IMG/VR virus record: IMGVR_UViG_3300014691_000062
DNA length: 19,618 nucleotides
DNA from: a virus
Lineage: Duplodnaviria; Heunggongvirae; Uroviricota; Caudoviricetes
Direction: 5' to 3' (one strand)
The position numbers and the translations under genes were made by a program. Shown here piece after piece: positions 5,210-18,250 of the stretch. The notes under the pieces were generated by a model, which was given only the letters and a program-made list of their open reading frames with translations, made no database searches and was not told the origin of the DNA. Positions within the stretch are counted from its first letter, which is position 1; each line of letters opens with the position of its first letter.

Positions 5210-6244
5210 ATGACTGCATCAGCGACCCCCACTAATATCACTCATAAGTTTATTGTTCACATTATGAACAAGGAACAACAGGGGTTAGCCACCATTATTC
5301 CTTGTCCTTCAGAAAAACCTGTTCAGCAAGCATCAAAAGACCTCTCTAACGCACTTACTGAAAGGTACTCTGGGAGAGCAGGTAAAGGATATGGGAAATT
5401 TGAAGATGACCGCGATAGTTACCCTATGGGTAATATCGTTGATGATTATTTCGTAAATAAAACACATAGTTTTTATGATACTAGTATCCGAATGATCAAT
5501 CATTTAAAAGCCAGAGCCGATGATGAATCAATGTCTACTGGTGGTTATGTAATAATTGCCCATAATGAGGTAAATGGAAATCATTATTTGATGGTTGCAA
5601 TCCTAACTTCAGCAGTTGGCTCTTCAGTCCACGATTTTGAAATTCAAGAAAGTGAATATCTAGACATTGCTAAACTTCGAGTAGCGGGACGAATTGACTT
5701 AACTGGGCGCCAGAATGGCAAAGAGAGATATATTAGCTTTCTAAAGGGGCAAAATTCAGTAGCAGGTTATTTCAAAAAGTTTTTAGGTTGCAACGATATT
5801 CTAATTGCCAAACAAGAAACAACAAAATTACGGAATGCACTTTTAGAATTTGCTACTGAAAGAGGTTTTGAACCAGAGGCACGTGAAGAGTTCCTAAATA
5901 AGGCTCATGAAAAATTAAAAAATTTAAATCGTTCTGGTGAAACTTTCGACACTCAAATTTTTGCAAACGAGATATGGCCAACTGCTCCTGAGTTGTTAGT
6001 TGAAAAGTTAACCAATGACGATCTGGAGTTCTCTGATGGGTTCGTGCCTGATGGCAACGTTATACGTGGGCTTGTTAGTTTCAAAGGAAAGTCCAAACAT
6101 TGGTCTCTGAAATTCGAGCGTGCGGCCTTGCATGATGGCAGCGTTCTTTATGATTCAGAAAACGATAAATTGATACTTACCGAGATTCCGGATACGCTAA
6201 GATCAGAGATTTTATCAGAATTAGGTGAAGAGGATGAGCAGTAA
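5210..6244 (+). CDS. YejK/NdpA-like (NA37 family) nucleoid-associated-protein homologue, cargo gene
   Basis: 344 aa; AAGGA SD 7 nt upstream of the ATG. By-eye alignment to E. coli YejK along the length ([22 protein letters not shown] / [38 protein letters not shown]…RYISFLKGQ / YLDINHADIVARIDLT…RYLTFLKGR). AT-rich relative to the phage backbone. Confidence 0.75.
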   Translation: [344 protein letters not shown]

Positions 6245-7412
6245 AAATCAGAGAACCTTCAAAGACTTAGTGACTATTTACAAGGCCGCTACATTTGCAG
6301 GTACCCTATCTGAAGCATCACTCATTCTTTCAAACGAGGAGCTCTGTGACATCATCAACGATATCACAGAGAATCCCCATGATTTTGGCATCACCCTTGA
6401 ATCTGGCAACATTGAGTTAGGCCAAACTATAACCTTACATATAACCCCCCCCAAATTACGATTGGGGCAGCTACATTTCTCTTTTAATGAGTATTTAAAA
6501 AATCCTAAAAATAGGATAAAGGAAGCCAGTAACTTCTTTATAATCGAACTTAATTATCACAACAGGGATAAAAAGTCGCCTGCTATTATATCCAAGTACA
6601 GAGATGTTTTGAGCTTAATTACTTTATTCAAAGATTGTTCTGCTTATTTAGATGAAACAAATTTTGAATTGGTATTCGTCGAATCCAACGTACTAAAAAT
6701 TCCAGTAAATTATTCTAGCGATGATCTTATGAATGTTAATGGAGATCTGATTCATAATTTGATCGCAAACTTTGCAGAAGATACGCATAAAGATCAAAAA
6801 CTTACTATTTTAGCAAGTAGTATAAAATCATCATGTGAATCTAAAACTAAAGAAACCTCTTTTTCCTTCATGTTAAGGGATTTAGGACAACTTTATGAAA
6901 GTTATCAAAAAGGATACAAAGTATTCGTTTCTGGTTTTTCTTACGAGAAAATACTAGATCAGTTACGAGTAGCCAAAATAGAAGAGATGGGGAAAATACA
7001 TAAAGTATTCAGTGACATACAAAATCAGATATTAGGTATCCCCGTCGCAACAATTATCGTTGCGACTCAAATGAAGCAGGCTAATGGTTGGGATAGTCAA
7101 GCATTAATAAACACAGCTGTAGTGTTGGGTGCATTGTTCTTCACTATTATGATTATATTTGTTCTATTTAATCAATGGCAAACTTTAACAGCAATAAATG
7201 ATGAGTTAAATCATAAAAAACAACAAGCAGAATATAACTTCAAGGCTATTTACGAAGATATAAAGGATACATTTGATAGTTTAACCACAAGATTGCTTGT
7301 TCAGAAAGTTGTTTTTGCCTCATTAGGAATTATAGTTTTATGTGGCTTATATCTTACATTTAGATTCTACTTTTTACTTACACCTTATGCTATTACATAT
7401 TTATTTAGCTGA
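6234..7412 (+). CDS. Membrane protein with a large N-terminal soluble domain and two C-terminal transmembrane helices, cargo gene
   Basis: ORF 6225..7412 (GTG); preferred ATG at 6234 with AGGTGA SD, overlapping the upstream stop by 11 nt. Hydrophobic helices ALINTAVVLGALFFTIMIIFVLF and VVFASLGIIVLCGLYLTFRFYFLL. Very AT-rich. No family recognised. Confidence 0.75.
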   Translation: MSSKNQRTFKDLVTIYKAATFAGTLSEASLILSNEELCDIINDITENPHDFGITLESGNIELGQTITLHITPPKLRLGQLHFSFNEYLKNPKNRIKEASNFFIIELNYHNRDKKSPAIISKYRDVLSLITLFKDCSAYLDETNFELVFVESNVLKIPVNYSSDDLMNVNGDLIHNLIANFAEDTHKDQKLTILASSIKSSCESKTKETSFSFMLRDLGQLYESYQKGYKVFVSGFSYEKILDQLRVAKIEEMGKIHKVFSDIQNQILGIPVATIIVATQMKQANGWDSQALINTAVVLGALFFTIMIIFVLFNQWQTLTAINDELNHKKQQAEYNFKAIYEDIKDTFDSLTTRLLVQKVVFASLGIIVLCGLYLTFRFYFLLTPYAITYLFS

Positions 7413-9627: not shown

Positions 9628-10017
9628 TCAGGCAGCTGCACCCGCCGTTTTCTCGTACTTACTGATAGTGATCTCGACCTTCCCTTCCGGGATAACCGGT
9701 CCCCACTCCACCAGCATTCTTTTCACCTGACTGTCGTCTTCCCACACCCCCGCGTGGGTCAGGGCGTCAAACAGCGCCTTGTTATAGTTGTCCAGATCGC
9801 GGATCCGGTTATCCGGAGGAAACAACACGATCTCCACTGAAGCAGGTGCCGACGTTGGTTTCGGCAGACGACGTAGCTGCTCAACTATTGCTGCGCACGC
9901 CGCACTCTGGAATTTTCGCCCCGCCGCGCTTATCAGGCTCTTACCAGCAAACGCCCCTTTGTTGGGGTGTCGCCAGTACGTGTTCACGCTGGGCGGAAAA
10001 GGCAGAATCAGCTTCAT
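9628..10017 (-). CDS. rusA: RusA Holliday-junction resolvase
   Basis: 129 aa with the RusA signature (…PPSVNTYWRH…DLDNYNKALFDALTHAGVWEDDSQV…); ATGA overlap with the upstream gene. Confidence 0.85.
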   Translation of the reverse strand: MKLILPFPPSVNTYWRHPNKGAFAGKSLISAAGRKFQSAACAAIVEQLRRLPKPTSAPASVEIVLFPPDNRIRDLDNYNKALFDALTHAGVWEDDSQVKRMLVEWGPVIPEGKVEITISKYEKTAGAAA

Positions 10018-10340
10018 ACTTTCAGGCCCCTCTCATGTAACCAGTGGGCTGCACGCAGCCTGGCGTTTTCCTCACCGGCAAGCAGTGAGCGGATAATCCC
10101 GACCGCCTCGCTGTCGTCGTCCTTCACCGCGGTATGAAGCGTTATCCCCCGGGCCACGCCACGCTTTATCGTGATGACGCCTTTTTTCTCCAGCGCACGA
10201 AGATGCTCCACCGCTGCATTCACCGAACGGTATCCCAGCATGGTTGCCACCTCCTGATTGGTTGGCGGGAAACCACGTTCTTTCTGATAAGAAATCAGCA
10301 TATCCAGCACCTGCTGCTGGCATTGAGTTAACGTCGTCAT
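10014..10340 (-). CDS. LexA N-terminal DNA-binding-domain protein lacking the S24 peptidase domain
   Basis: 108 aa; first ~70 residues align with the LexA winged HTH (QQQVLDMLISYQKERGFPPTNQEVATMLGYRSVNAAVEHLRALEKKGVI vs LexA RQQEVFDLIRDH…[34 protein letters not shown]). ATGA overlaps on both sides. Confidence 0.7.
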   Translation of the reverse strand: MTTLTQCQQQVLDMLISYQKERGFPPTNQEVATMLGYRSVNAAVEHLRALEKKGVITIKRGVARGITLHTAVKDDDSEAVGIIRSLLAGEENARLRAAHWLHERGLKV

Positions 10341-10990
10341 GCCGCCATCTCCCTGACCAGTTTTTCCGCCTGCTGACGAACCTGCTCCAGAAACGCCTCA
10401 CCACATGCCTCAAGTTCATCGCGCCCGATGTAGCTGATTGCCGGTCCCTTCCAGGTCTTGTCGAAAACAGCAATAGCACCAGCGAAGAAAGCGCCTGTCG
10501 GCACCTGCTTCTCATCCTTCGGGATAAACCAGGCAGGCAGTTCAAAACCAATACGCCCGCGAATAAAAGCAATATGATCTGCATCTTCCGGCCACCACAC
10601 TTCGCTGGTGGCAGCTTTGATCAGGAAAACATAGCGCCCGCCCTTATCACGCATGGCACTGGCATGTTTCATGATGTAACGCATGCCGGTGATGTATTGC
10701 CCCTCATGCTGACTGGCGCGGCTGTATGGGGGATTACCAAAGGCAGCACCTTTTAGCTCCGCAAGACGTTCTGACCAGTCATGCGCCAGCGCGTTGTCTT
10801 CCGCCGTGTAATACGCAGCACATTTGGCGTTATCACCGTCAGTGAACAGATCCAGAACAAACGGGCCAAACAGGGTGTTAATTCCCCAGAAAATGTTGTC
10901 CGGCGTGCGCCACTGATCGCCCACTTCCTTCAGTTCATGGGCTGGTTTGTTCCGCAGTTCCACCAGCGCCTGGCAATATTTATTACTCAT
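10337..10990 (-). CDS. Phage DNA N6-adenine methyltransferase (Dam-like orphan MTase)
   Basis: NPPY motif (AFGNPPYS); preferred ATG at 10990 shares one nt with the upstream stop (TAATG); track start 11023 is GTG. Confidence 0.8.
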   Translation of the reverse strand: MSNKYCQALVELRNKPAHELKEVGDQWRTPDNIFWGINTLFGPFVLDLFTDGDNAKCAAYYTAEDNALAHDWSERLAELKGAAFGNPPYSRASQHEGQYITGMRYIMKHASAMRDKGGRYVFLIKAATSEVWWPEDADHIAFIRGRIGFELPAWFIPKDEKQVPTGAFFAGAIAVFDKTWKGPAISYIGRDELEACGEAFLEQVRQQAEKLVREMAA

Positions 10991-11478
10991 TAAGCCCCCA
11001 CGTAATTCCCTGACAGATACCACTCTTCACCCGATGCAGCGCGCTTGCTGCTTTTCTGTAAGCACTGCTCACGACGCGCCAGAAAATTGTTTCGTTCTGG
11101 CTGGGAGTGGCTTTCACGGAATGCCGCCATCCACACCGTTGCAGCACGACGGTATAGGCCCCTGGACTCCAGTTCTTCAGCCTGGCGGGTCAGGCACAAA
11201 ATCACCCGTGGATCGTTAGTGCCGACATAGAAATTGCGCACAGGTCTGGTTTCACGAACTGGTTGTGGTTCCGGCTCCTGCGCTCTCTCAGTCAGGCGCG
11301 GGAAATGTCTGCGTGTATCCCCTTCACAACGGTGAGCCACACGCCCACTCTGACGTAACTTGCTTGCTGACTGCAGAACGCGCTGCCGTGAGTAACCTGC
11401 AAAAGCATCCGCAATATCTCCGGAAGTACAGCCCGGATGGGCTTCAATGAATTTCTGAACTTCATTCAAAAGACTCAT
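10990..11478 (-). CDS. Hypothetical protein, possibly PerC-like
   Basis: About 162 aa; C-terminal …GLYRRAATVWMAAF… is reminiscent of PerC/Pch-type regulators. Weak assignment. Confidence 0.45.
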   Translation of the reverse strand: MSLLNEVQKFIEAHPGCTSGDIADAFAGYSRQRVLQSASKLRQSGRVAHRCEGDTRRHFPRLTERAQEPEPQPVRETRPVRNFYVGTNDPRVILCLTRQAEELESRGLYRRAATVWMAAFRESHSQPERNNFLARREQCLQKSSKRAASGEEWYLSGNYVGA

Positions 11479-11480
11479 GC

Positions 11481-12313
11481 TCACCCCCTGAATCCTGCCG
11501 GGATCTGGCTGTAGTCCACGTTGTCGTAACTGGATTTGAAATACGGGTCTTCGCGTTTTTCTGTGTATGTGCTGATGGACGGCGATAAGCGCAGGGAAAG
11601 CTCATCCCATTTTTCCCGCAGCTTCGACGGGCTGAGCACGTTACGGCACCAGAACGGATCGCGGCTGACGCGGCTGTACATCTCGCAGATTTGTTTGTGA
11701 GTACGACCATCCTGCACACACATCAGGCGAATTTCGTTTGCCCAGGCTGTCCAGTTCGGTTCTTTGGGACGAACCACCTCGCCGTCACATTCGGCGGCCT
11801 GCTCGTACAGGGCGATGANNNNNNNNNNTGCTGGGTTGGGAAACCGCCGGAACGAGAAGGTTTTTTATCTGACGGATCATGTTTTGATTTTACTGACGGA
11901 TCCCCGCCAGATTCTGACGGGTGAAAACCCGCTTTTTTGCCAGATTTCGACGCATCAAATTTTGACGGGTCAGATTTTGATGCGTCAGATTTTGACGGGT
12001 CAGAATCTGACAGTTGAGAAAATGCCGCTGCCTGAAGCTTCGCAACGTTAAGCTGATAAACATTCGACGCATTGCGGTTACCCTGGCGACGCGCCTTACG
12101 CGTTAACCAGCCTTCTGCTTCCAGCCGTGCGATAGCCGTTCTGACGGTACTCATCCCCGCGCCAATCTGGCGGGCAATGGTTTCAATTGATGGCCAGCAC
12201 ACACCTTCGTCATTACTGAAATCAGCCAGGCGGGCCATAATTGCCACGCTGGATAATTTCATGCCTGATGCAGCGCAACCATCCCATACATAGCCGGTTA
12301 ATTTAGTGCTCAT
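11481..12313 (-). CDS. Replication initiator (lambda O-like organisation, HTH N-domain) with the origin iterons inside the gene; interrupted by an N-run
   Basis: N-terminal HTH domain (…WPSIETIARQIGAGMSTVRTAIARLEAEGWL…), then a repetitive SKSDASKSDPSKFD linker encoded by iterons; C-terminal part is ORF 11481..11777. N-run 11819..11828 inside; GAGGT SD. Confidence 0.7.
11819..11828. other. Run of 10 N inside the replication gene
   Basis: Literal n characters in the sequence. Confidence 1.
11866..12012. repeat. Origin-like iteron array
   Basis: About 8 tandem copies of a ~12-15 bp unit built on TGACGG (cagattttgacgggt, cagattttgatgcgt, attctgacgggt, tactgacggatc …). Confidence 0.7.
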
Positions 12314-12322
12314 GACCGACCT

Positions 12323-12661
12323 CTATTTCCCTGAATTTACGACGAAACTGTTCGAGCGGGCTGAAGCACTCATGCTCATAGCCTTCGCGGAGGTAGATAA
12401 CTCGTTGTGTTTCCGGCTCCCAACGAATGACTCTGACGGGCACTCCGTAGTGATCTTTGAACCAGCGGTTAACTTGTCGCAAAGGACTGTCTCCTTCTGC
12501 CGGTTGAAATCACCCACAGCCCACTCAGCAAAGCTGTGGGTTACAATTTCCCTGTCACCTGGTACATTAACTGCATAGCAATACTCCACCTTCGCTTTTC
12601 CACCCGGTACAGGAAGCGCAATCAGTTGCGAGCGACGGTAGTGTGTTGTTAAACTGTTCAT
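12323..12661 (-). CDS. Hypothetical protein between the cII-like gene and the replication gene
   Basis: ATG at 12661 overlaps the upstream stop (ATGA), supporting translation; the C-terminal half is low-complexity, so the true extent is uncertain. Confidence 0.45.
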
Positions 12662-13266
12662 GCGTTAGTTTCTCCACAGTCACGACACGCCACGGCGCCC
12701 GGAGCTGCACACTCGCGGGCGTCATTACTTTCTGAAATGCAAAAGATTTTGTAGACCAGTGCTGCATGCTCCTGCAGCTTCGAAATTGAGAGATACAGCT
12801 CGTCGTTAATTGCTGTCTTCTCATGCGGTTCCACCACACCGTCTTCGATTGCCGAACGAATCTGTCTGGAATAACTGCCAATCTGTTCAATGACTTCCAG
12901 CAGGCGCTGGTTAATATCGGCGTTGTCCACATCCTCGACGTCAGGAAGAGACACAAAGACGCCATTTGCAGACTGCGCCACAGCGTCAGCAATGAAGTGA
13001 GTTCCACCAGCACGTTGCAAAATCATTGCCCATCCCAGCGGGAAAATCTGATCGCCATCGGCACGAAGGCGGTTAAATAATGCGTTTTCTGTTACATCCA
13101 GCCAGTCAGCTGCTTCAGCGTAACCACCCGGCAACGCTGCGATAGTTTTTCTGACAGCTTTCACGTACCACTCAGGCTGTTTTTCTACTTTCCAGTGATG
13201 CTTACCCACGGTTAGCCTCATCGTTCTGTGGTTTCTGTTAATCGATTTATCCATTAGATTTTTCAT
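12658..13266 (-). CDS. Putative CII-like / YdaT-family regulator
   Basis: Long ORF immediately downstream of a YdaS-like cro. The track start at 13323 would overlap cro by 77 nt; plausible ATGs are at 13266, 13254 and 13221. Family assignment is from position and partial recall. Confidence 0.45.
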
Positions 13267-13447
13267 AAAGCTCAGGTTTAAATGGCAACCGTCCGCAAGT
13301 TCTATATGCAGCTTCTGCTGCACGTCCTTTTGGAATTAACTGGCCCGGACGGTTTCGCCACTGATAAACGGCTTCAGTTGTTATGCCGAAAAAAGCAGCA
13401 ACTTTCTCAATACTGCCGAAGTAGCTTTCGATATCGTCAGTTGTCAT
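13247..13447 (-). CDS. cro: Cro-like repressor (YdaS-family HTH)
   Basis: 66 aa, divergent from cI across an operator region; HTH …SIEKVAAFFGITTEAVYQWRN… resembles YdaS/Cro. Confidence 0.75.
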   Translation of the reverse strand: MTTDDIESYFGSIEKVAAFFGITTEAVYQWRNRPGQLIPKGRAAEAAYRTCGRLPFKPELYEKSNG

Positions 13448-15545: not shown

Positions 15546-15575
15546 GCGGTGCAGCGCATATACGTGGAGAACAAA

Positions 15576-16112
15576 ATGTCATTTATTAAAACTTTTTCCG
15601 GGAAGCATTTTTATTATGACAGGATAAATAAAGACGACATCGTTATTAACGATATCGCGGTTTCCCTTTCAAATATCTGTCGCTTTGCAGGACATCTTTC
15701 ACACTTCTACAGTGTCGCCCAACATGCGGTGCTTTGCAGCCAGCTGGTGCCGCAGGAATTTGCTTTTGAAGCTTTAATGCATGATGCAACAGAAGCATAT
15801 TGCCAGGACATCCCCGCACCACTGAAACGACTTCTTCCTGACTATAAACGTATGGAAGAAAAAATAGACGCCGTAATCCGTGAGAAATACGGGTTACCTC
15901 CTGTTATGAGCACGCCAGTGAAATATGCCGATCTCATTATGCTGGCAACCGAACGCCGCGATCTCGGGCTTGATGATGGCTCTTTCTGGCCTGTACTGGA
16001 AGGTATCACGGCAACAGAGATGTTCAAAGTGATTCCACAGGCACCGGGCCATGCCTACGGGATGTTTATGGAACGTTTTAACGAGTTATCGGAGTTACGC
16101 AAATGCGCATGA
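15576..16112 (+). CDS. HD-domain phosphohydrolase
   Basis: H…H and HD motifs (…RFAGHLSHFYSVAQHA…LMHDATEAY…); ATG at 15576 with GGAGA SD (track start 15549 is GTG). Confidence 0.75.
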   Translation: MSFIKTFSGKHFYYDRINKDDIVINDIAVSLSNICRFAGHLSHFYSVAQHAVLCSQLVPQEFAFEALMHDATEAYCQDIPAPLKRLLPDYKRMEEKIDAVIREKYGLPPVMSTPVKYADLIMLATERRDLGLDDGSFWPVLEGITATEMFKVIPQAPGHAYGMFMERFNELSELRKCA

Positions 16113-18160: not shown

Positions 18161-18250
18161 CTTATTGATTTTAATGGTGCCGATAATAGGAGTCGAACCT
18201 ACGACCTTCGCATTACGAATGCGCTGCTCTACCAACTGAGCTATATCGGC
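18161..18250. other. Putative attL (core expected to overlap the 3' part of thrW)
   Basis: Junction between the int stop and the tRNA; P22-type integrases are known to target the 3' end of thrW. Exact core boundaries cannot be set without attR or attB. Confidence 0.45.
18175..18250 (-). tRNA. thrW: tRNA-Thr (anticodon CGU)
   Basis: 76-nt minus-strand sequence GCCGATATAGCTCAGTTGGTAGAGCAGCGCATTCGTAATGCGAAGGTCGTAGGTTCGACTCCTATTATCGGCACCA: cloverleaf, CGT anticodon, encoded CCA end. Confidence 0.95.

What the first reader, a model, noticed from the sequence alone, without database searches (positions are those of the whole stretch)
10990..12661. Replication module with in-gene iterons but no recognisable helicase loader
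The initiator has a lambda-O-like organisation, with the iteron array (11866..12012) embedded in the coding sequence and encoding a repetitive S/K/D linker. The downstream gene, however, is a 162-aa protein of uncertain family rather than a P, DnaC or DnaB homologue, and the upstream 112-aa ORF is also unassigned. The 10-nt N-run sits beside the iterons, so the copy number is uncertain.
Basis: partly seen in the sequence, partly recalled or inferred. Interest (0 to 1): 0.4.

Follow-up and report, generated by a model that had tools for sequence, protein, structure and literature searches.

The report
Loader-less phage origin with DnaT-like tail
This is the replication origin and initiator gene of a very common SfII/e14-type E. 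coli prophage that encodes no helicase loader of its own, a known but unexplained arrangement, and its initiator ends in the same short tail as the host restart protein DnaT, which suggests it borrows the host DnaB-DnaC helicase-loading machinery.

Summary
A minus-strand initiator gene (12313..11481, broken by a 10-N scaffold gap) carries 7-8 copies of a 10-bp palindromic iteron inside the part that encodes its disordered S/K/D linker. No P, DnaC or DnaB homologue is present in the window or in the complete genome of phage SfII (97.8% identical).

Three details need correction:
- The 162-aa protein is YfdN: a winged-helix domain plus a PerC domain, not a loader.
- The 112-aa ORF is YmfM, 97% identical to the K-12 cell-division inhibitor. 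A DUF4222 gene overlaps it in another frame.
- The gap does not touch the iterons. It replaces about 120 nt (40 codons) of the C-terminal domain.

The module occurs in 2800 of 5426 complete E. coli genomes. "O-only" lambdoid modules are already described as not understood (Zheng et al. 2025), so the element is already known.

New here: the initiator combines an HTH_36 N-domain, a true lambda-O C-domain (E 3e-25) and the tail ...IPAGFRG. That tail matches the C-terminus of host DnaT (IPPGFRG). It also matches unrelated phage initiators that sit next to phage dnaC genes. It is never found next to P. My best model, which is inferred, is that the tail docks host DnaB-DnaC.

The parts
11481..12313 (-). 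Replication initiator gene (O-like; 313 aa in complete relatives), interrupted by the scaffold gap
   Evidence: Translations. The complete 313-aa protein comes from L001. PHROG 391 'replication initiation O-like', E 9e-135. Pfam HTH_36, 42.9 bits.
12020..12313 (-). Codes for the N-terminal winged-helix (HTH_36) origin-binding domain, aa 1-98
   Evidence: Pfam HTH_36 E 4e-11. The AF2 model shows H-H-H-H-beta-beta with pLDDT 75-87. Foldseek finds MarR/ArsR-type winged helices. There is no match to Pfam Phage_rep_O, which lambda O hits at 5.7e-36.
11867..12017 (.). Iteron array (putative origin). Seven copies of TGAYGSRTCA with at most 1 mismatch at 11870, 11894, 11915, 11948, 11963, 11978 and 11993, plus a weak eighth at 12008. 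The last five are spaced 15 bp apart. The array codes for the disordered S/K/D linker.
   Evidence: Identical in L001, and in L002 apart from two substitutions. AF2 pLDDT is below 50 for aa 103-155. Relatives that share the N-domain have 3-9 copies at the same gene position (one locus with a diverged, 34%-identical N-domain has 1). Relatives with a different N-domain have 0.
11820..11829 (.). 10-N scaffold gap, standing for about 120 nt (40 codons) of the start of the C-terminal domain
   Evidence: Alignments with L001, L002 and L088. The matching stretch is 1960 nt in L001 against 1851 nt in the window.
11830..11852 (.). 23 nt next to the gap that differ from all relatives (about 8 mismatches and 1 indel); probably a low-quality contig end
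11580..11819 (-). Codes for the part of the lambda-O-type C-terminal domain that is present in the window (aa about 202-280 of 313)
   Evidence: BLASTP against lambda O, E 3e-25, 31% over 211 aa. hhalign probability 99.6%, E 7.8e-25. AF2 pLDDT 80-92. The domain matches 2558 representatives of 50%-identity clusters.
11484..11516 (-). Codes for the C-terminal tail DYSQIPAGFRG (DnaT-type tail motif IPxGFRG-COOH)
   Evidence: Translation. G310 and R312 are invariant, and P308 and F311 are at least 90% conserved, in 33 homologues. E. coli DnaT ends ...PDSQIPPGFRG. 106 of 107 DnaT orthologues keep IPxGFRG. Covariation with the partner gene.
10990..11478 (-). yfdN: a 162-aa protein with a winged-helix domain plus a PerC domain, probably a transcription regulator and not a loader
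   Evidence: Pfam PerC 36.3 bits against cut-off 22.6. PHROG 1324 'transcriptional activator', E 1e-77. AF2 shows wHTH 1-60, a disordered stretch 63-83 and three helices 90-148. Foldseek against PDB returns mainly winged-helix regulators. BLASTP against lambda P gives E 0.2.
12323..12661 (-). ymfM ORF (112 aa). Its ATG overlaps the ymfL stop codon (ATGA).
   Evidence: 97% identical to K-12 e14 YmfM, 'cell division inhibitor'. PHROG 1170, E 4e-70.
12303..12482 (-). DUF4222 gene (59 aa, TTG start, AAGGAG 8 nt upstream). It lies in the -1 frame inside ymfM and overlaps the initiator start by 11 nt.
   Evidence: Pfam DUF4222 67.3 bits against cut-off 27. Annotated by PGAP in L001. Substitutions among relatives fall 220/172/705 on its codon positions 1/2/3.
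12658..13323 (-). ymfL, a CII-like regulator upstream of the module
   Evidence: Pfam Phage_CP76 E 1e-13. NCBIfam YmfL equivalog E 2e-49.
10337..11023 (-). Phage Dam (N6-adenine) methyltransferase, immediately downstream of yfdN
   Evidence: Pfam Dam E 1e-45. A Dam gene is the commonest downstream neighbour of such initiators, in 24 of 80 downstream ORFs.

Best explanation
The region is the early-right replication module of an SfII/SfIV/e14-type lambdoid prophage integrated at tRNA-Thr next to proA. It is of the 'initiator-only' (O-only) kind.

Shown:
- One 313-aa initiator is built from three pieces: an HTH_36 winged-helix N-domain, a disordered linker and a folded C-domain homologous to the C-domain of lambda O.
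- The DNA that encodes the linker holds 7-8 palindromic 10-bp iterons.
- The iterons co-vary with the N-domain across relatives.
- No P, DnaC-like or DnaB-like gene follows the initiator.
- The flanking genes are regulators or accessory genes: ymfL/CII-like, ymfM, DUF4222, yfdN/PerC and dam.

Inferred:
- Initiator dimers bind the iterons through the N-domain and form an O-some-like complex inside their own gene.
- Helicase delivery needs no phage loader because the protein ends in the tail ...DYSQIPAGFRG-COOH. This is the same short motif that ends the host primosomal protein DnaT, whose gene sits directly upstream of dnaC.
- The same motif ends at least five differently beginning classes of phage initiator whenever they are followed by a phage dnaC homologue. 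At least two of these classes (YdaU/DUF1376 and HTH_36) belong to different families.
- The tail is therefore proposed to dock the DnaB6-DnaC6 complex, most likely through DnaC. Phages of this type would use the host's DnaC in place of a P protein.
- Where the DNA first unwinds is not resolved, because no strongly AT-rich block is present.
For: Identity of the element:
- 99.7% identical to closed E. coli genomes and 97.8% to phage SfII. Present in 2800 of 5426 complete E. coli genomes.

Initiator architecture:
-.
- C-domain homology to lambda O.

Iterons:
-. Identical in a closed genome.
- 3-9 copies in relatives that share the N-domain, 1 in a locus with a diverged N-domain, and 0 in relatives with a different N-domain.

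No loader:
- Pfam scan of 80 downstream ORFs, tblastn with P, DnaC, DnaB and DnaT, and the whole SfII genome.
- Such O-only phages are isolated, viable phages, and the class is recognised in the literature (PMC12315714).

Tail:
- Conserved in 33 homologues: G310 and R312 invariant, P308 and F311 at least 90%.
- Sample chosen by N-domain, 77 initiators: 49 have a GFRx tail (48 with no loader, 1 with a DnaC-like gene); 8 have a lambda-like W/acidic tail and all 8 have P. Fisher 5e-11, not corrected for phylogeny.
- Sample chosen by DnaC-like genes: 73 of 74 upstream ORFs end IPPGFRG, across at least 5 differently beginning initiator classes, among them Rac YdaU/DUF1376.
- Sample chosen by P: all 73 recovered upstream ORFs end NTDWIYGV[DE]L.
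- Sample chosen by tail: of 120 ORFs ending PDxxIPPGFRG, 60 are followed by a DnaC-like gene, 56 by no loader, 4 have too little flank to tell, and 0 by P or DnaB. The same initiator type occurs with and without a phage dnaC.
- DnaT ends PDSQIPPGFRG, and 106 of 107 orthologues keep IPxGFRG with x variable.
- The literature states that how DnaT recruits DnaB/DnaC is unknown and that dnaT-dnaC interact genetically (PMC13377028).
Against: - No binding of any kind was tested. The iteron-protein and tail-DnaC contacts are inferences.
- The DnaC-sampled and P-sampled sets hold closely related loaders (at least 79% and at least 97% identical). The tail and the loader gene are adjacent, so their linkage could partly reflect inheritance as one recombination block.
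- The latest structural work proposes the DnaT N-terminal domain, not the tail, as the DnaB/DnaC recruiter.
- Our tail (IPAGFRG, preceded by DYS) is a variant of the DnaT form (IPPGFRG, preceded by PDS).
- A third loader-less tail class (RWNxIWK...) exists that the model does not explain.
- No DnaA box and no AT-rich unwinding element (lowest GC 0.43 in 60-nt windows) was found, so the opening step is unexplained.
Confidence: 0.5

Rival explanations
1. The DnaT-type tail binds a host factor other than DnaC: DnaB itself, PriA or PriB, SSB, or another replisome part. Alternatively, replication of these phages is mainly recombination- or restart-dependent, and the initiator only feeds the PriA-type primosome rather than loading DnaB-DnaC at an origin.
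For: - The partner of DnaT residues 154-179 is unknown.
- The O-only phage LLS grows better with RecBCD and is rich in Chi sites (PMC12315714).
- Initiators that carry a full DnaT C-domain exist.
- The window has no DnaA boxes and no AT-rich element.
Against: - The tail tracks the type of phage loader. It occurs with DnaC-like genes or with no loader, and never with P or DnaB. That pattern is expected for a contact with the loader and not for a contact with a factor common to all routes.
- A clear iteron origin is present and co-varies with the DNA-binding domain.
Confidence: 0.25
2. YfdN, the 162-aa protein just downstream, is a new kind of helicase loader or adaptor that replaces P.
For: - It occupies the position of P, with only 2 nt between the initiator stop codon and its ATG.
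- PerC-like genes follow the initiator in 20 of 80 downstream ORFs scanned.
- Fused initiator-PerC ORFs appear in some assemblies (P0001).
Against: - It is a PerC-family member above the curated cut-off, with a winged-helix N-domain. Foldseek returns mainly DNA-binding regulators and no P, DnaC, DnaI or DciA.
- It shows no similarity to P.
- In L060 a P gene sits between the initiator and a PerC-like gene, so the two are not alternatives.
- Most loader-less initiators are followed directly by a methyltransferase and have no PerC gene.
Confidence: 0.05
3. The module is incomplete. P was lost, and the prophage is replication-defective or depends on a P or DnaC-like protein supplied by another resident lambdoid prophage.
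For: - The C-domain is of the lambda-O type, and relatives with a 69-74% identical C-domain are followed by P.
- E. coli strains often carry several lambdoid prophages: the match occurs at a median of 2 places per genome.
- K-12 e14 and CPS-53 are defective relatives.
Against: - Plaque-forming or inducible phages (SfII, SfIV, vB_Eco isolates, Kati, PhiR49) carry the same module with no loader.
- The initiator ORF is intact and conserved in thousands of genomes.
- The initiators paired with P have a different tail, so this one is not simply a P-type O that lost its partner.
Confidence: 0.07
4. The repeats are only a low-complexity coding linker with no origin function.
For: The repeats encode a disordered S/K/D-rich linker. 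No binding data exist.
Against: - The conserved unit is a DNA palindrome (TGAC-NN-GTCA). Its half-sites are kept while the encoded residue between D and S varies (P, A or T).
- Copy number varies between relatives, as it does for iterons.
- The array is present only where the N-domain is of the same family.
- The position in the gene matches that of ori-lambda.
Confidence: 0.05

Closest known systems
Phage lambda O / ori-lambda / P module
   Same: - The origin consists of palindromic iterons inside the initiator gene, between a DNA-binding N-domain and a C-domain.
- The C-domain is homologous (E 3e-25).
- The position is the same, after cro and a CII-like gene in the early-right operon.
   Different: - The N-domain is HTH_36, not Phage_rep_O.
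- There are 7-8 ten-bp iterons, five of them at 15-bp spacing, instead of four 18-19-bp iterons, and there is no AT-rich block.
- There is no P gene.
- The tail is IPAGFRG instead of NTDWIYGVDL.
O-only lambdoid replication modules (phage LLS and 34 of 314 lambdoid phages; Zheng, Casjens et al., Genome Res 2025, PMC12315714)
   Same: A single O-homologue gene with no helicase or loader. This window fits that description exactly.
   Different: I did not test whether the LLS O protein has the same domains or tail. That paper offers no mechanism.
E. coli DnaT-DnaC (replication restart primosome)
   Same: The C-terminal tail is the same, xxIPxGFRG-COOH. A tail-bearing protein encoded directly upstream of a dnaC-type gene is the arrangement seen in the phage relatives.
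   Different: - Our protein has no DnaT DNA-binding domain (PF17948 does not match).
- It finds its site through iterons, not through PriA/PriB.
- No dnaC gene follows it.
Rac prophage YdaU-YdaV and other lambdoid 'initiator + DnaC-type loader' modules
   Same: The initiator ends in IPPGFRG. Some of these initiators (the type starting MSSKLHGLVWEGCAF) belong to the same HTH_36 + lambda-O-C-domain family at 57-60% identity.
   Different: They encode their own DnaC homologue. YdaU has an unrelated DUF1376 N-domain.
DopC/DopE, domesticated lambda O/P-like genes (Brezellec et al. 2017, PMC5509034)
   Same: An HTH_36 O-like protein joined to DnaT-derived C-terminal sequence.
   Different: DopC carries the DnaT C-domain, has no iterons, is paired with a P-like DopE and is chromosomal. 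Ours keeps the lambda-O C-domain, has iterons and has no partner.

Membership tests
Lambda O family (Pfam Phage_rep_O, PF04492) | N-terminal Phage_rep_O DNA-binding domain | tested here: not met
   No PF04492 match even at E<=1. Lambda O itself scores 123 bits, E 5.7e-36. tblastn with the lambda O N-terminus finds nothing.
Lambda O family | C-terminal domain homologous to that of lambda O | tested here: met
   BLASTP E 3e-25. hhalign probability 99.6%, 40% identity over 102 columns.
Lambda O family | Iteron origin inside the initiator gene | tested here: met
   Binding itself was not tested.
Lambda O family | Partner P gene immediately downstream | tested here: not met
   The downstream gene is a PerC-family gene. 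There is no P by tblastn or Pfam in the window, L001 or SfII.
HTH_36 replication initiators (PF13730; PHROG 391) | HTH_36 domain above the Pfam cut-off and a full-length match to PHROG 391 | tested here: met
   42.9 bits against cut-off 25. PHROG 391 E 9e-135, residues 1-313 against 1-298 of 298.
O-only lambdoid replication module | O homologue present, and no helicase or helicase loader anywhere in the phage genome | tested here: met
   Window and L001 annotation. Complete SfII genome. Pfam on the window ORFs.
PerC family (PF06069), for the 162-aa protein | PerC domain above the gathering score | tested here: met
   36.3 bits against 22.6, aa 98-149. RefSeq names it yfdN, 'PerC family transcriptional regulator'.
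Helicase loaders (lambda P PF06992; DnaC/IstB PF01695), for the 162-aa protein | Sequence or fold similarity to P or to an AAA+ loader | tested here: not met
   No Pfam match. BLASTP against P gives E 0.2. Foldseek against PDB returns mainly winged-helix regulators among the top 50 and no loader.
YmfM (e14 cell-division inhibitor), for the 112-aa ORF | Near-identity to K-12 b1148 | tested here: met
   109 of 112 residues identical. Function is known from the literature only. The coding status of the C-terminal half is doubtful.
DnaT (PF17948) | DnaT three-helix ssDNA-binding domain | tested here: not met
   The initiator has no PF17948 match. DnaT itself scores 75 bits. Only the terminal motif is shared.
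DnaT-type tail (motif defined here) | Protein ends in IPxGFR[G/S], preceded by an acidic or polar stretch | tested here: met
   ...NVDYSQIPAGFRG-stop. The motif itself is defined. Its function is not testable with these tools.

The most novel reading that the evidence does not exclude
The seven-residue C-terminal tail IPxGFRG is a portable docking motif for DnaC-type helicase loaders. Three groups of proteins share it:
- host DnaT;
- phage initiators of several unrelated families that sit upstream of phage dnaC genes;
- the loader-less 'O-only' initiators such as this one.

If this is right, it explains two open points at once: how O-only lambdoid phages load DnaB (by mimicking DnaT and taking the host DnaB-DnaC complex), and how DnaT hands DnaB/DnaC to the restart primosome. 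It also suggests that the dnaT-dnaC operon and the phage 'initiator-dnaC' modules have a common origin.
Probability: 0.4. Interest if true: 0.7.

Novelty: already known. Interest (0 to 1): 0.42.

Why it matters
The element itself is ordinary. It is one of the commonest E. coli and Shigella prophage modules and it is already annotated.

It does belong to a class, lambdoid phages that have an O gene but no loader or helicase, whose replication is explicitly described as not understood. The comparison made here gives a concrete, cheap test: mutate or transplant a 7-residue tail.

The same test bears on an open question in host biology, namely how DnaT recruits DnaB/DnaC during replication restart.

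The analysis also shows that the annotated 'YmfM' cell-division inhibitor ORF contains a better-conserved DUF4222 gene in another frame. This matters for interpreting the published over-expression phenotype.

Tried and rejected
- **Foldseek of the full-length initiator model against PDB** returned only winged-helix hits for the N-domain. No separate model of the C-domain was made, because the two structure jobs went to the initiator and to YfdN. Sequence and profile comparison with lambda O answered the question instead.
- **Pfam, NCBIfam and PDB sequence searches of the C-domain** gave nothing. PHROG labels such as 'DnaD-like helicase loader' and 'primosomal protein' were treated as leads only. 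'Primosomal protein' is explained by the DnaT-like tail and by relatives with a DnaT C-domain.
- **Literature search for 'initiator-solo'** found nothing. I recall this term from Weigel & Seitz 2006, FEMS Microbiol Rev, but that recollection is unverified.
- **Viral-contig scan with the initiator alignment** returned only 97-99% identical copies and added no diversity.
- **The idea that DUF4222 is reached from ymfM by a -1 frameshift** was dropped. The DUF4222 ORF has its own AAGGAG 8 nt before a TTG start (read), and PGAP calls it as a separate gene.
- **DnaA-box search** (TTWTNCACA) found 0 in the window. A plasmid-like, DnaA-assisted origin is therefore not supported.
- **PADLOC** gave no defence-system hit for YfdN, DUF4222 or the two ORFs at 5210-7412.
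- **A search for the exact 23 nt next to the gap** in other genomes found only diverged matches.
Full report
**What is in the window**

All genes of the finding are on the minus strand. The window is 99.7% identical over 10900-12750 to closed E. coli chromosomes and 97.8% identical to Shigella phage SfII. The same stretch occurs in 2800 of 5426 complete E. coli genomes and in 65 phage records.

In strain Z0117EC0116 (L001) the prophage lies between a P27-family terminase and tRNA-Thr/proA. The window shows the same layout, with tRNA-Thr(cgt) at 18175-18250.

The gene order in the direction of transcription is:
- cro, then ymfL (CII-like, 13323..12658);
- ymfM (12661..12323) with an overlapping DUF4222 ORF (12482..12303);
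- the initiator (12313..11481);
- yfdN (11478..10990);
- dam, a LexA-DNA-binding-domain protein, rusA, a KilA-N gene, a DUF968 gene and Q.

**Check of the observation**

The repeat array is real.
- Tandem Repeats Finder reports a 15-nt unit x4.3, or a 30-nt unit x2.1, at 11941-12004.
- The repeat finder extends the family back to 11867.
- The core is the imperfect 10-bp palindrome TGAYGSRTCA. Seven sites with at most 1 mismatch fall within 11870-12002.
- The whole window holds 32 strand-matches against 8.8 +/- 3.6 expected, and none of 200 shuffles reached that number.
- On the coding strand each core reads xxT-GAC-NNN-TCA, which translates as S-D-x-S. This is why the linker reads SDPSKSDASKS.

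The array is identical in L001, and in SfII apart from two substitutions, so it is not an assembly artefact.

The N-run at 11820-11829 lies 37 nt beyond the outermost iteron. It stands for about 120 nt, or 40 codons: 161 + 112 + 40 = 313 aa, the length of the complete protein. The missing DNA encodes the start of the C-terminal domain and contains no iteron. The 23 nt at 11830-11852 match no relative cleanly and look like a poor contig end.

**The flanking ORFs**

*The 162-aa protein.* It is YfdN.
- It matches Pfam PerC at 36.3 bits against a cut-off of 22.6, over residues 98-149, and PHROG 1324 'transcriptional activator'.
- AlphaFold2 gives a winged helix (1-60), a disordered spacer and a three-helix PerC domain.
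- Foldseek against PDB returns mainly winged-helix regulators and no P, DnaC, DnaI or DciA.
- BLASTP against lambda P is insignificant.

*The 112-aa ORF.* It is 97% identical to K-12 e14 YmfM, which is annotated as a cell-division inhibitor (bioRxiv 10.1101/2020.11.19.390815).
- Its 3' half is overlapped in the -1 frame by a 59-aa DUF4222 ORF (Pfam E 8.6e-19), which RefSeq annotates instead.
- Among diverged relatives, DNA similarity usually starts at the DUF4222 start codon.
- Substitutions in the overlap fall 220/172/705 on DUF4222 codon positions 1/2/3. DUF4222 is therefore the frame under purifying selection.
- The ymfM frame nevertheless stays open in the 16 diverged gapless relatives.

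**The initiator**

The complete protein (313 aa) has four parts.
- *N-domain.* It has an HTH_36 N-domain and matches PHROG 391 'replication initiation O-like' end to end.
- *Structure.* AlphaFold2 with 33 homologues shows a winged-helix domain (1-98), a disordered linker (103-155, pLDDT below 50), a confident helical C-domain (about 165-280, pLDDT 80-92) and a disordered tail.
- *Relation to lambda O.* The N-domain does not match Pfam Phage_rep_O, which lambda O hits at 5.7e-36. The C-domain is homologous to the lambda O C-domain: BLASTP E 3e-25 and hhalign probability 99.6%.
- *Spread of the C-domain.* It is widespread, with 2558 representatives of 50%-identity clusters.

In 37 related loci, the 33 that share the N-domain carry 3-9 copies of the palindromic core at the same place in the gene. 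One locus with a diverged (34%-identical) N-domain has 1 copy. The three loci whose N-domain is of another family have none. Copy number differs between relatives. Both patterns are what one expects of iterons recognised by the N-domain. Binding itself is inferred.

**No loader**

Pfam scans of 80 ORFs downstream of related initiators gave Dam 24, PerC 20, Phage_lambda_P 8 and IstB/DnaC-like 2. tblastn with P, DnaC, DnaB and DnaT agreed.

The window, L001 and the whole 41.5-kb SfII genome have no helicase, primase or loader.

PerC-like genes are not a substitute for P. In L060 a P gene sits between the initiator and a PerC-like gene.

The literature already records this arrangement. [quoted passage not shown]

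**What distinguishes loader-less initiators**

The last 10-15 residues of the initiators sort by partner gene, independently of which C-domain they carry.

| Sample | Size | Result |
|---|---|---|
| Chosen by N-domain | 77 initiators | 49 end in ...IPxGFR[G/S] (48 with no loader, 1 with a DnaC-like gene). 8 end in a lambda-like W/acidic tail (HWNSPEAWENTL, NTDWIDGIENDL; lambda itself NTDWIYGVDL), and all 8 are followed by P. 16 end in RWNxIWK..., with no loader. |
| Chosen by DnaC-like genes | 74 upstream ORFs | 73 end IPPGFRG. They span at least five differently beginning initiator classes, among them Rac YdaU (DUF1376) and a 57-60% identical member of our own family. |
| Chosen by P | 73 upstream ORFs | All end NTDWIYGV[DE]L. 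|
| Chosen by tail (PDxxIPPGFRG-stop) | 120 ORFs | 60 are followed by a DnaC-like gene, 56 by none of DnaC, P or DnaB, 4 have too little flank, and 0 by P or DnaB. The same initiator type occurs with and without a phage dnaC. |

For the first sample, Fisher's exact test gives 5e-11 without correction for phylogeny.

E. coli DnaT, whose gene lies immediately upstream of dnaC, ends ...VSEPDSQIPPGFRG. Of 107 DnaT orthologues, 106 keep IPxGFRG with x variable. The window's initiator ends ...DYSQIPAGFRG, and the motif is conserved in its family: G310 and R312 are invariant, and P308 and F311 are at least 90% conserved.

**Mechanism proposed**

Shown:
- the three-part initiator architecture;
- the in-gene iterons and their covariation with the N-domain;
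- the absence of any loader gene;
- the DnaT-type tail and its association with DnaC-type loaders or with no loader.

Inferred:
- The initiator binds the iterons as dimers and forms an O-some-like complex.
- The tail docks DnaB6-DnaC6, most likely through DnaC.
- This phage therefore uses the host loader and needs no P.

Recent structural work states that how DnaT recruits DnaB/DnaC 'remains unknown' and favours the DnaT N-domain (PMC13377028). DnaT residues 154-179 have no assigned structure or role (PMC4132743). No paper in the library contains the motif. Combinations of HTH_36 O-like proteins with DnaT C-terminal sequence have been noted before, for DopC (PMC5509034).

Weak points:
- No binding was tested.
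- The loader-sampled sets are phylogenetically narrow, and the tail is physically linked to the loader gene.
- A third loader-less tail class is unexplained.
- No DnaA box and no AT-rich unwinding block marks the opening site.

**Verdict**

The finding is real, but the element is a known and very common one, and its lack of a loader is a described, unexplained class.

The useful outcome is a specific, testable hypothesis, DnaT-tail mimicry. It would connect O-only phage replication with the open question of how DnaT recruits DnaB/DnaC.

Noticed in passing
window 12303-12661 (minus strand): The annotated 112-aa ymfM ORF contains a 59-aa DUF4222 gene in the -1 frame, with its own AAGGAG and a TTG start. 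Substitutions among relatives fall 220/172/705 on DUF4222 codon positions 1/2/3, so the C-terminal half of 'YmfM' is not the conserved frame. Even so, the ymfM frame stays open in the 16 diverged gapless relatives. The published ymfM over-expression clones would also carry DUF4222, so which product causes filamentation is open.
   Followed up: partly
window 11830-11852: The 23 nt directly next to the N-run differ from every relative by about 8 mismatches and 1 indel, while both sides beyond are nearly identical. This is probably a low-quality contig end joined by an arbitrary 10-N spacer.
   Followed up: partly
loci L016, L019-L024, L037, L054, L055, L062, L065, L069, L070, L074, L075, L079 (initiator C-termini): A third class of initiator tail (...RKAWAGIWQQAAEQ... 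/ ...RWNxIWKExxQR...) in Providencia, Proteus, Yersinia, Rahnella and Buttiauxella relatives is also followed by methyltransferases and by no loader. The DnaT-tail model does not cover these.
   Followed up: no
loci L025-L058 (about 290-aa initiators), for example L039 942-1115 and L045 4697-4870: Many relatives share only the N-domain and iterons. They carry a different C-domain that gives weak DnaT hits (29-30% identity). These look like a fusion of an origin-binding domain with the DnaT C-domain and tail, again with no loader gene downstream.
   Followed up: partly
window 5210-7412 (plus strand, between Q and the holin): Two opposite-strand cargo ORFs lie here: a 344-aa NA37/YejK-like nucleoid-associated protein (Pfam E 8e-69) and a 395-aa protein with no family. 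L001 and SfII carry different genes at this position. PADLOC gives no hit.
   Followed up: partly
window 10014-10340 (minus strand): A 108-aa protein consists only of a LexA DNA-binding domain (Pfam E 3e-19) and lacks the S24 self-cleavage domain. It may be a non-cleavable protein that binds SOS boxes.
   Followed up: no
window 15549-16112 (plus strand): An HD-domain ORF lies in the early-left region; its match to the YfbR-like 5'-deoxynucleotidase family is sub-threshold (24.7 bits against a cut-off of 25.9). L001 annotates yfdR, and K-12 YfdR is reported to bind DnaA and inhibit oriC initiation (PMC4776307, title and abstract seen). Correspondence between this ORF and yfdR was not checked. 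If it holds, the prophage may also act on host replication.
   Followed up: no
window 11918-11941 (plus strand): A terminator-like hairpin followed by a T-run (CGGGTGAAAACCCG CTTTTTTGCC) sits inside the iteron array, antisense to the initiator gene. Other short A/T tracts flank the array, but there is no long AT-rich block.
   Followed up: no
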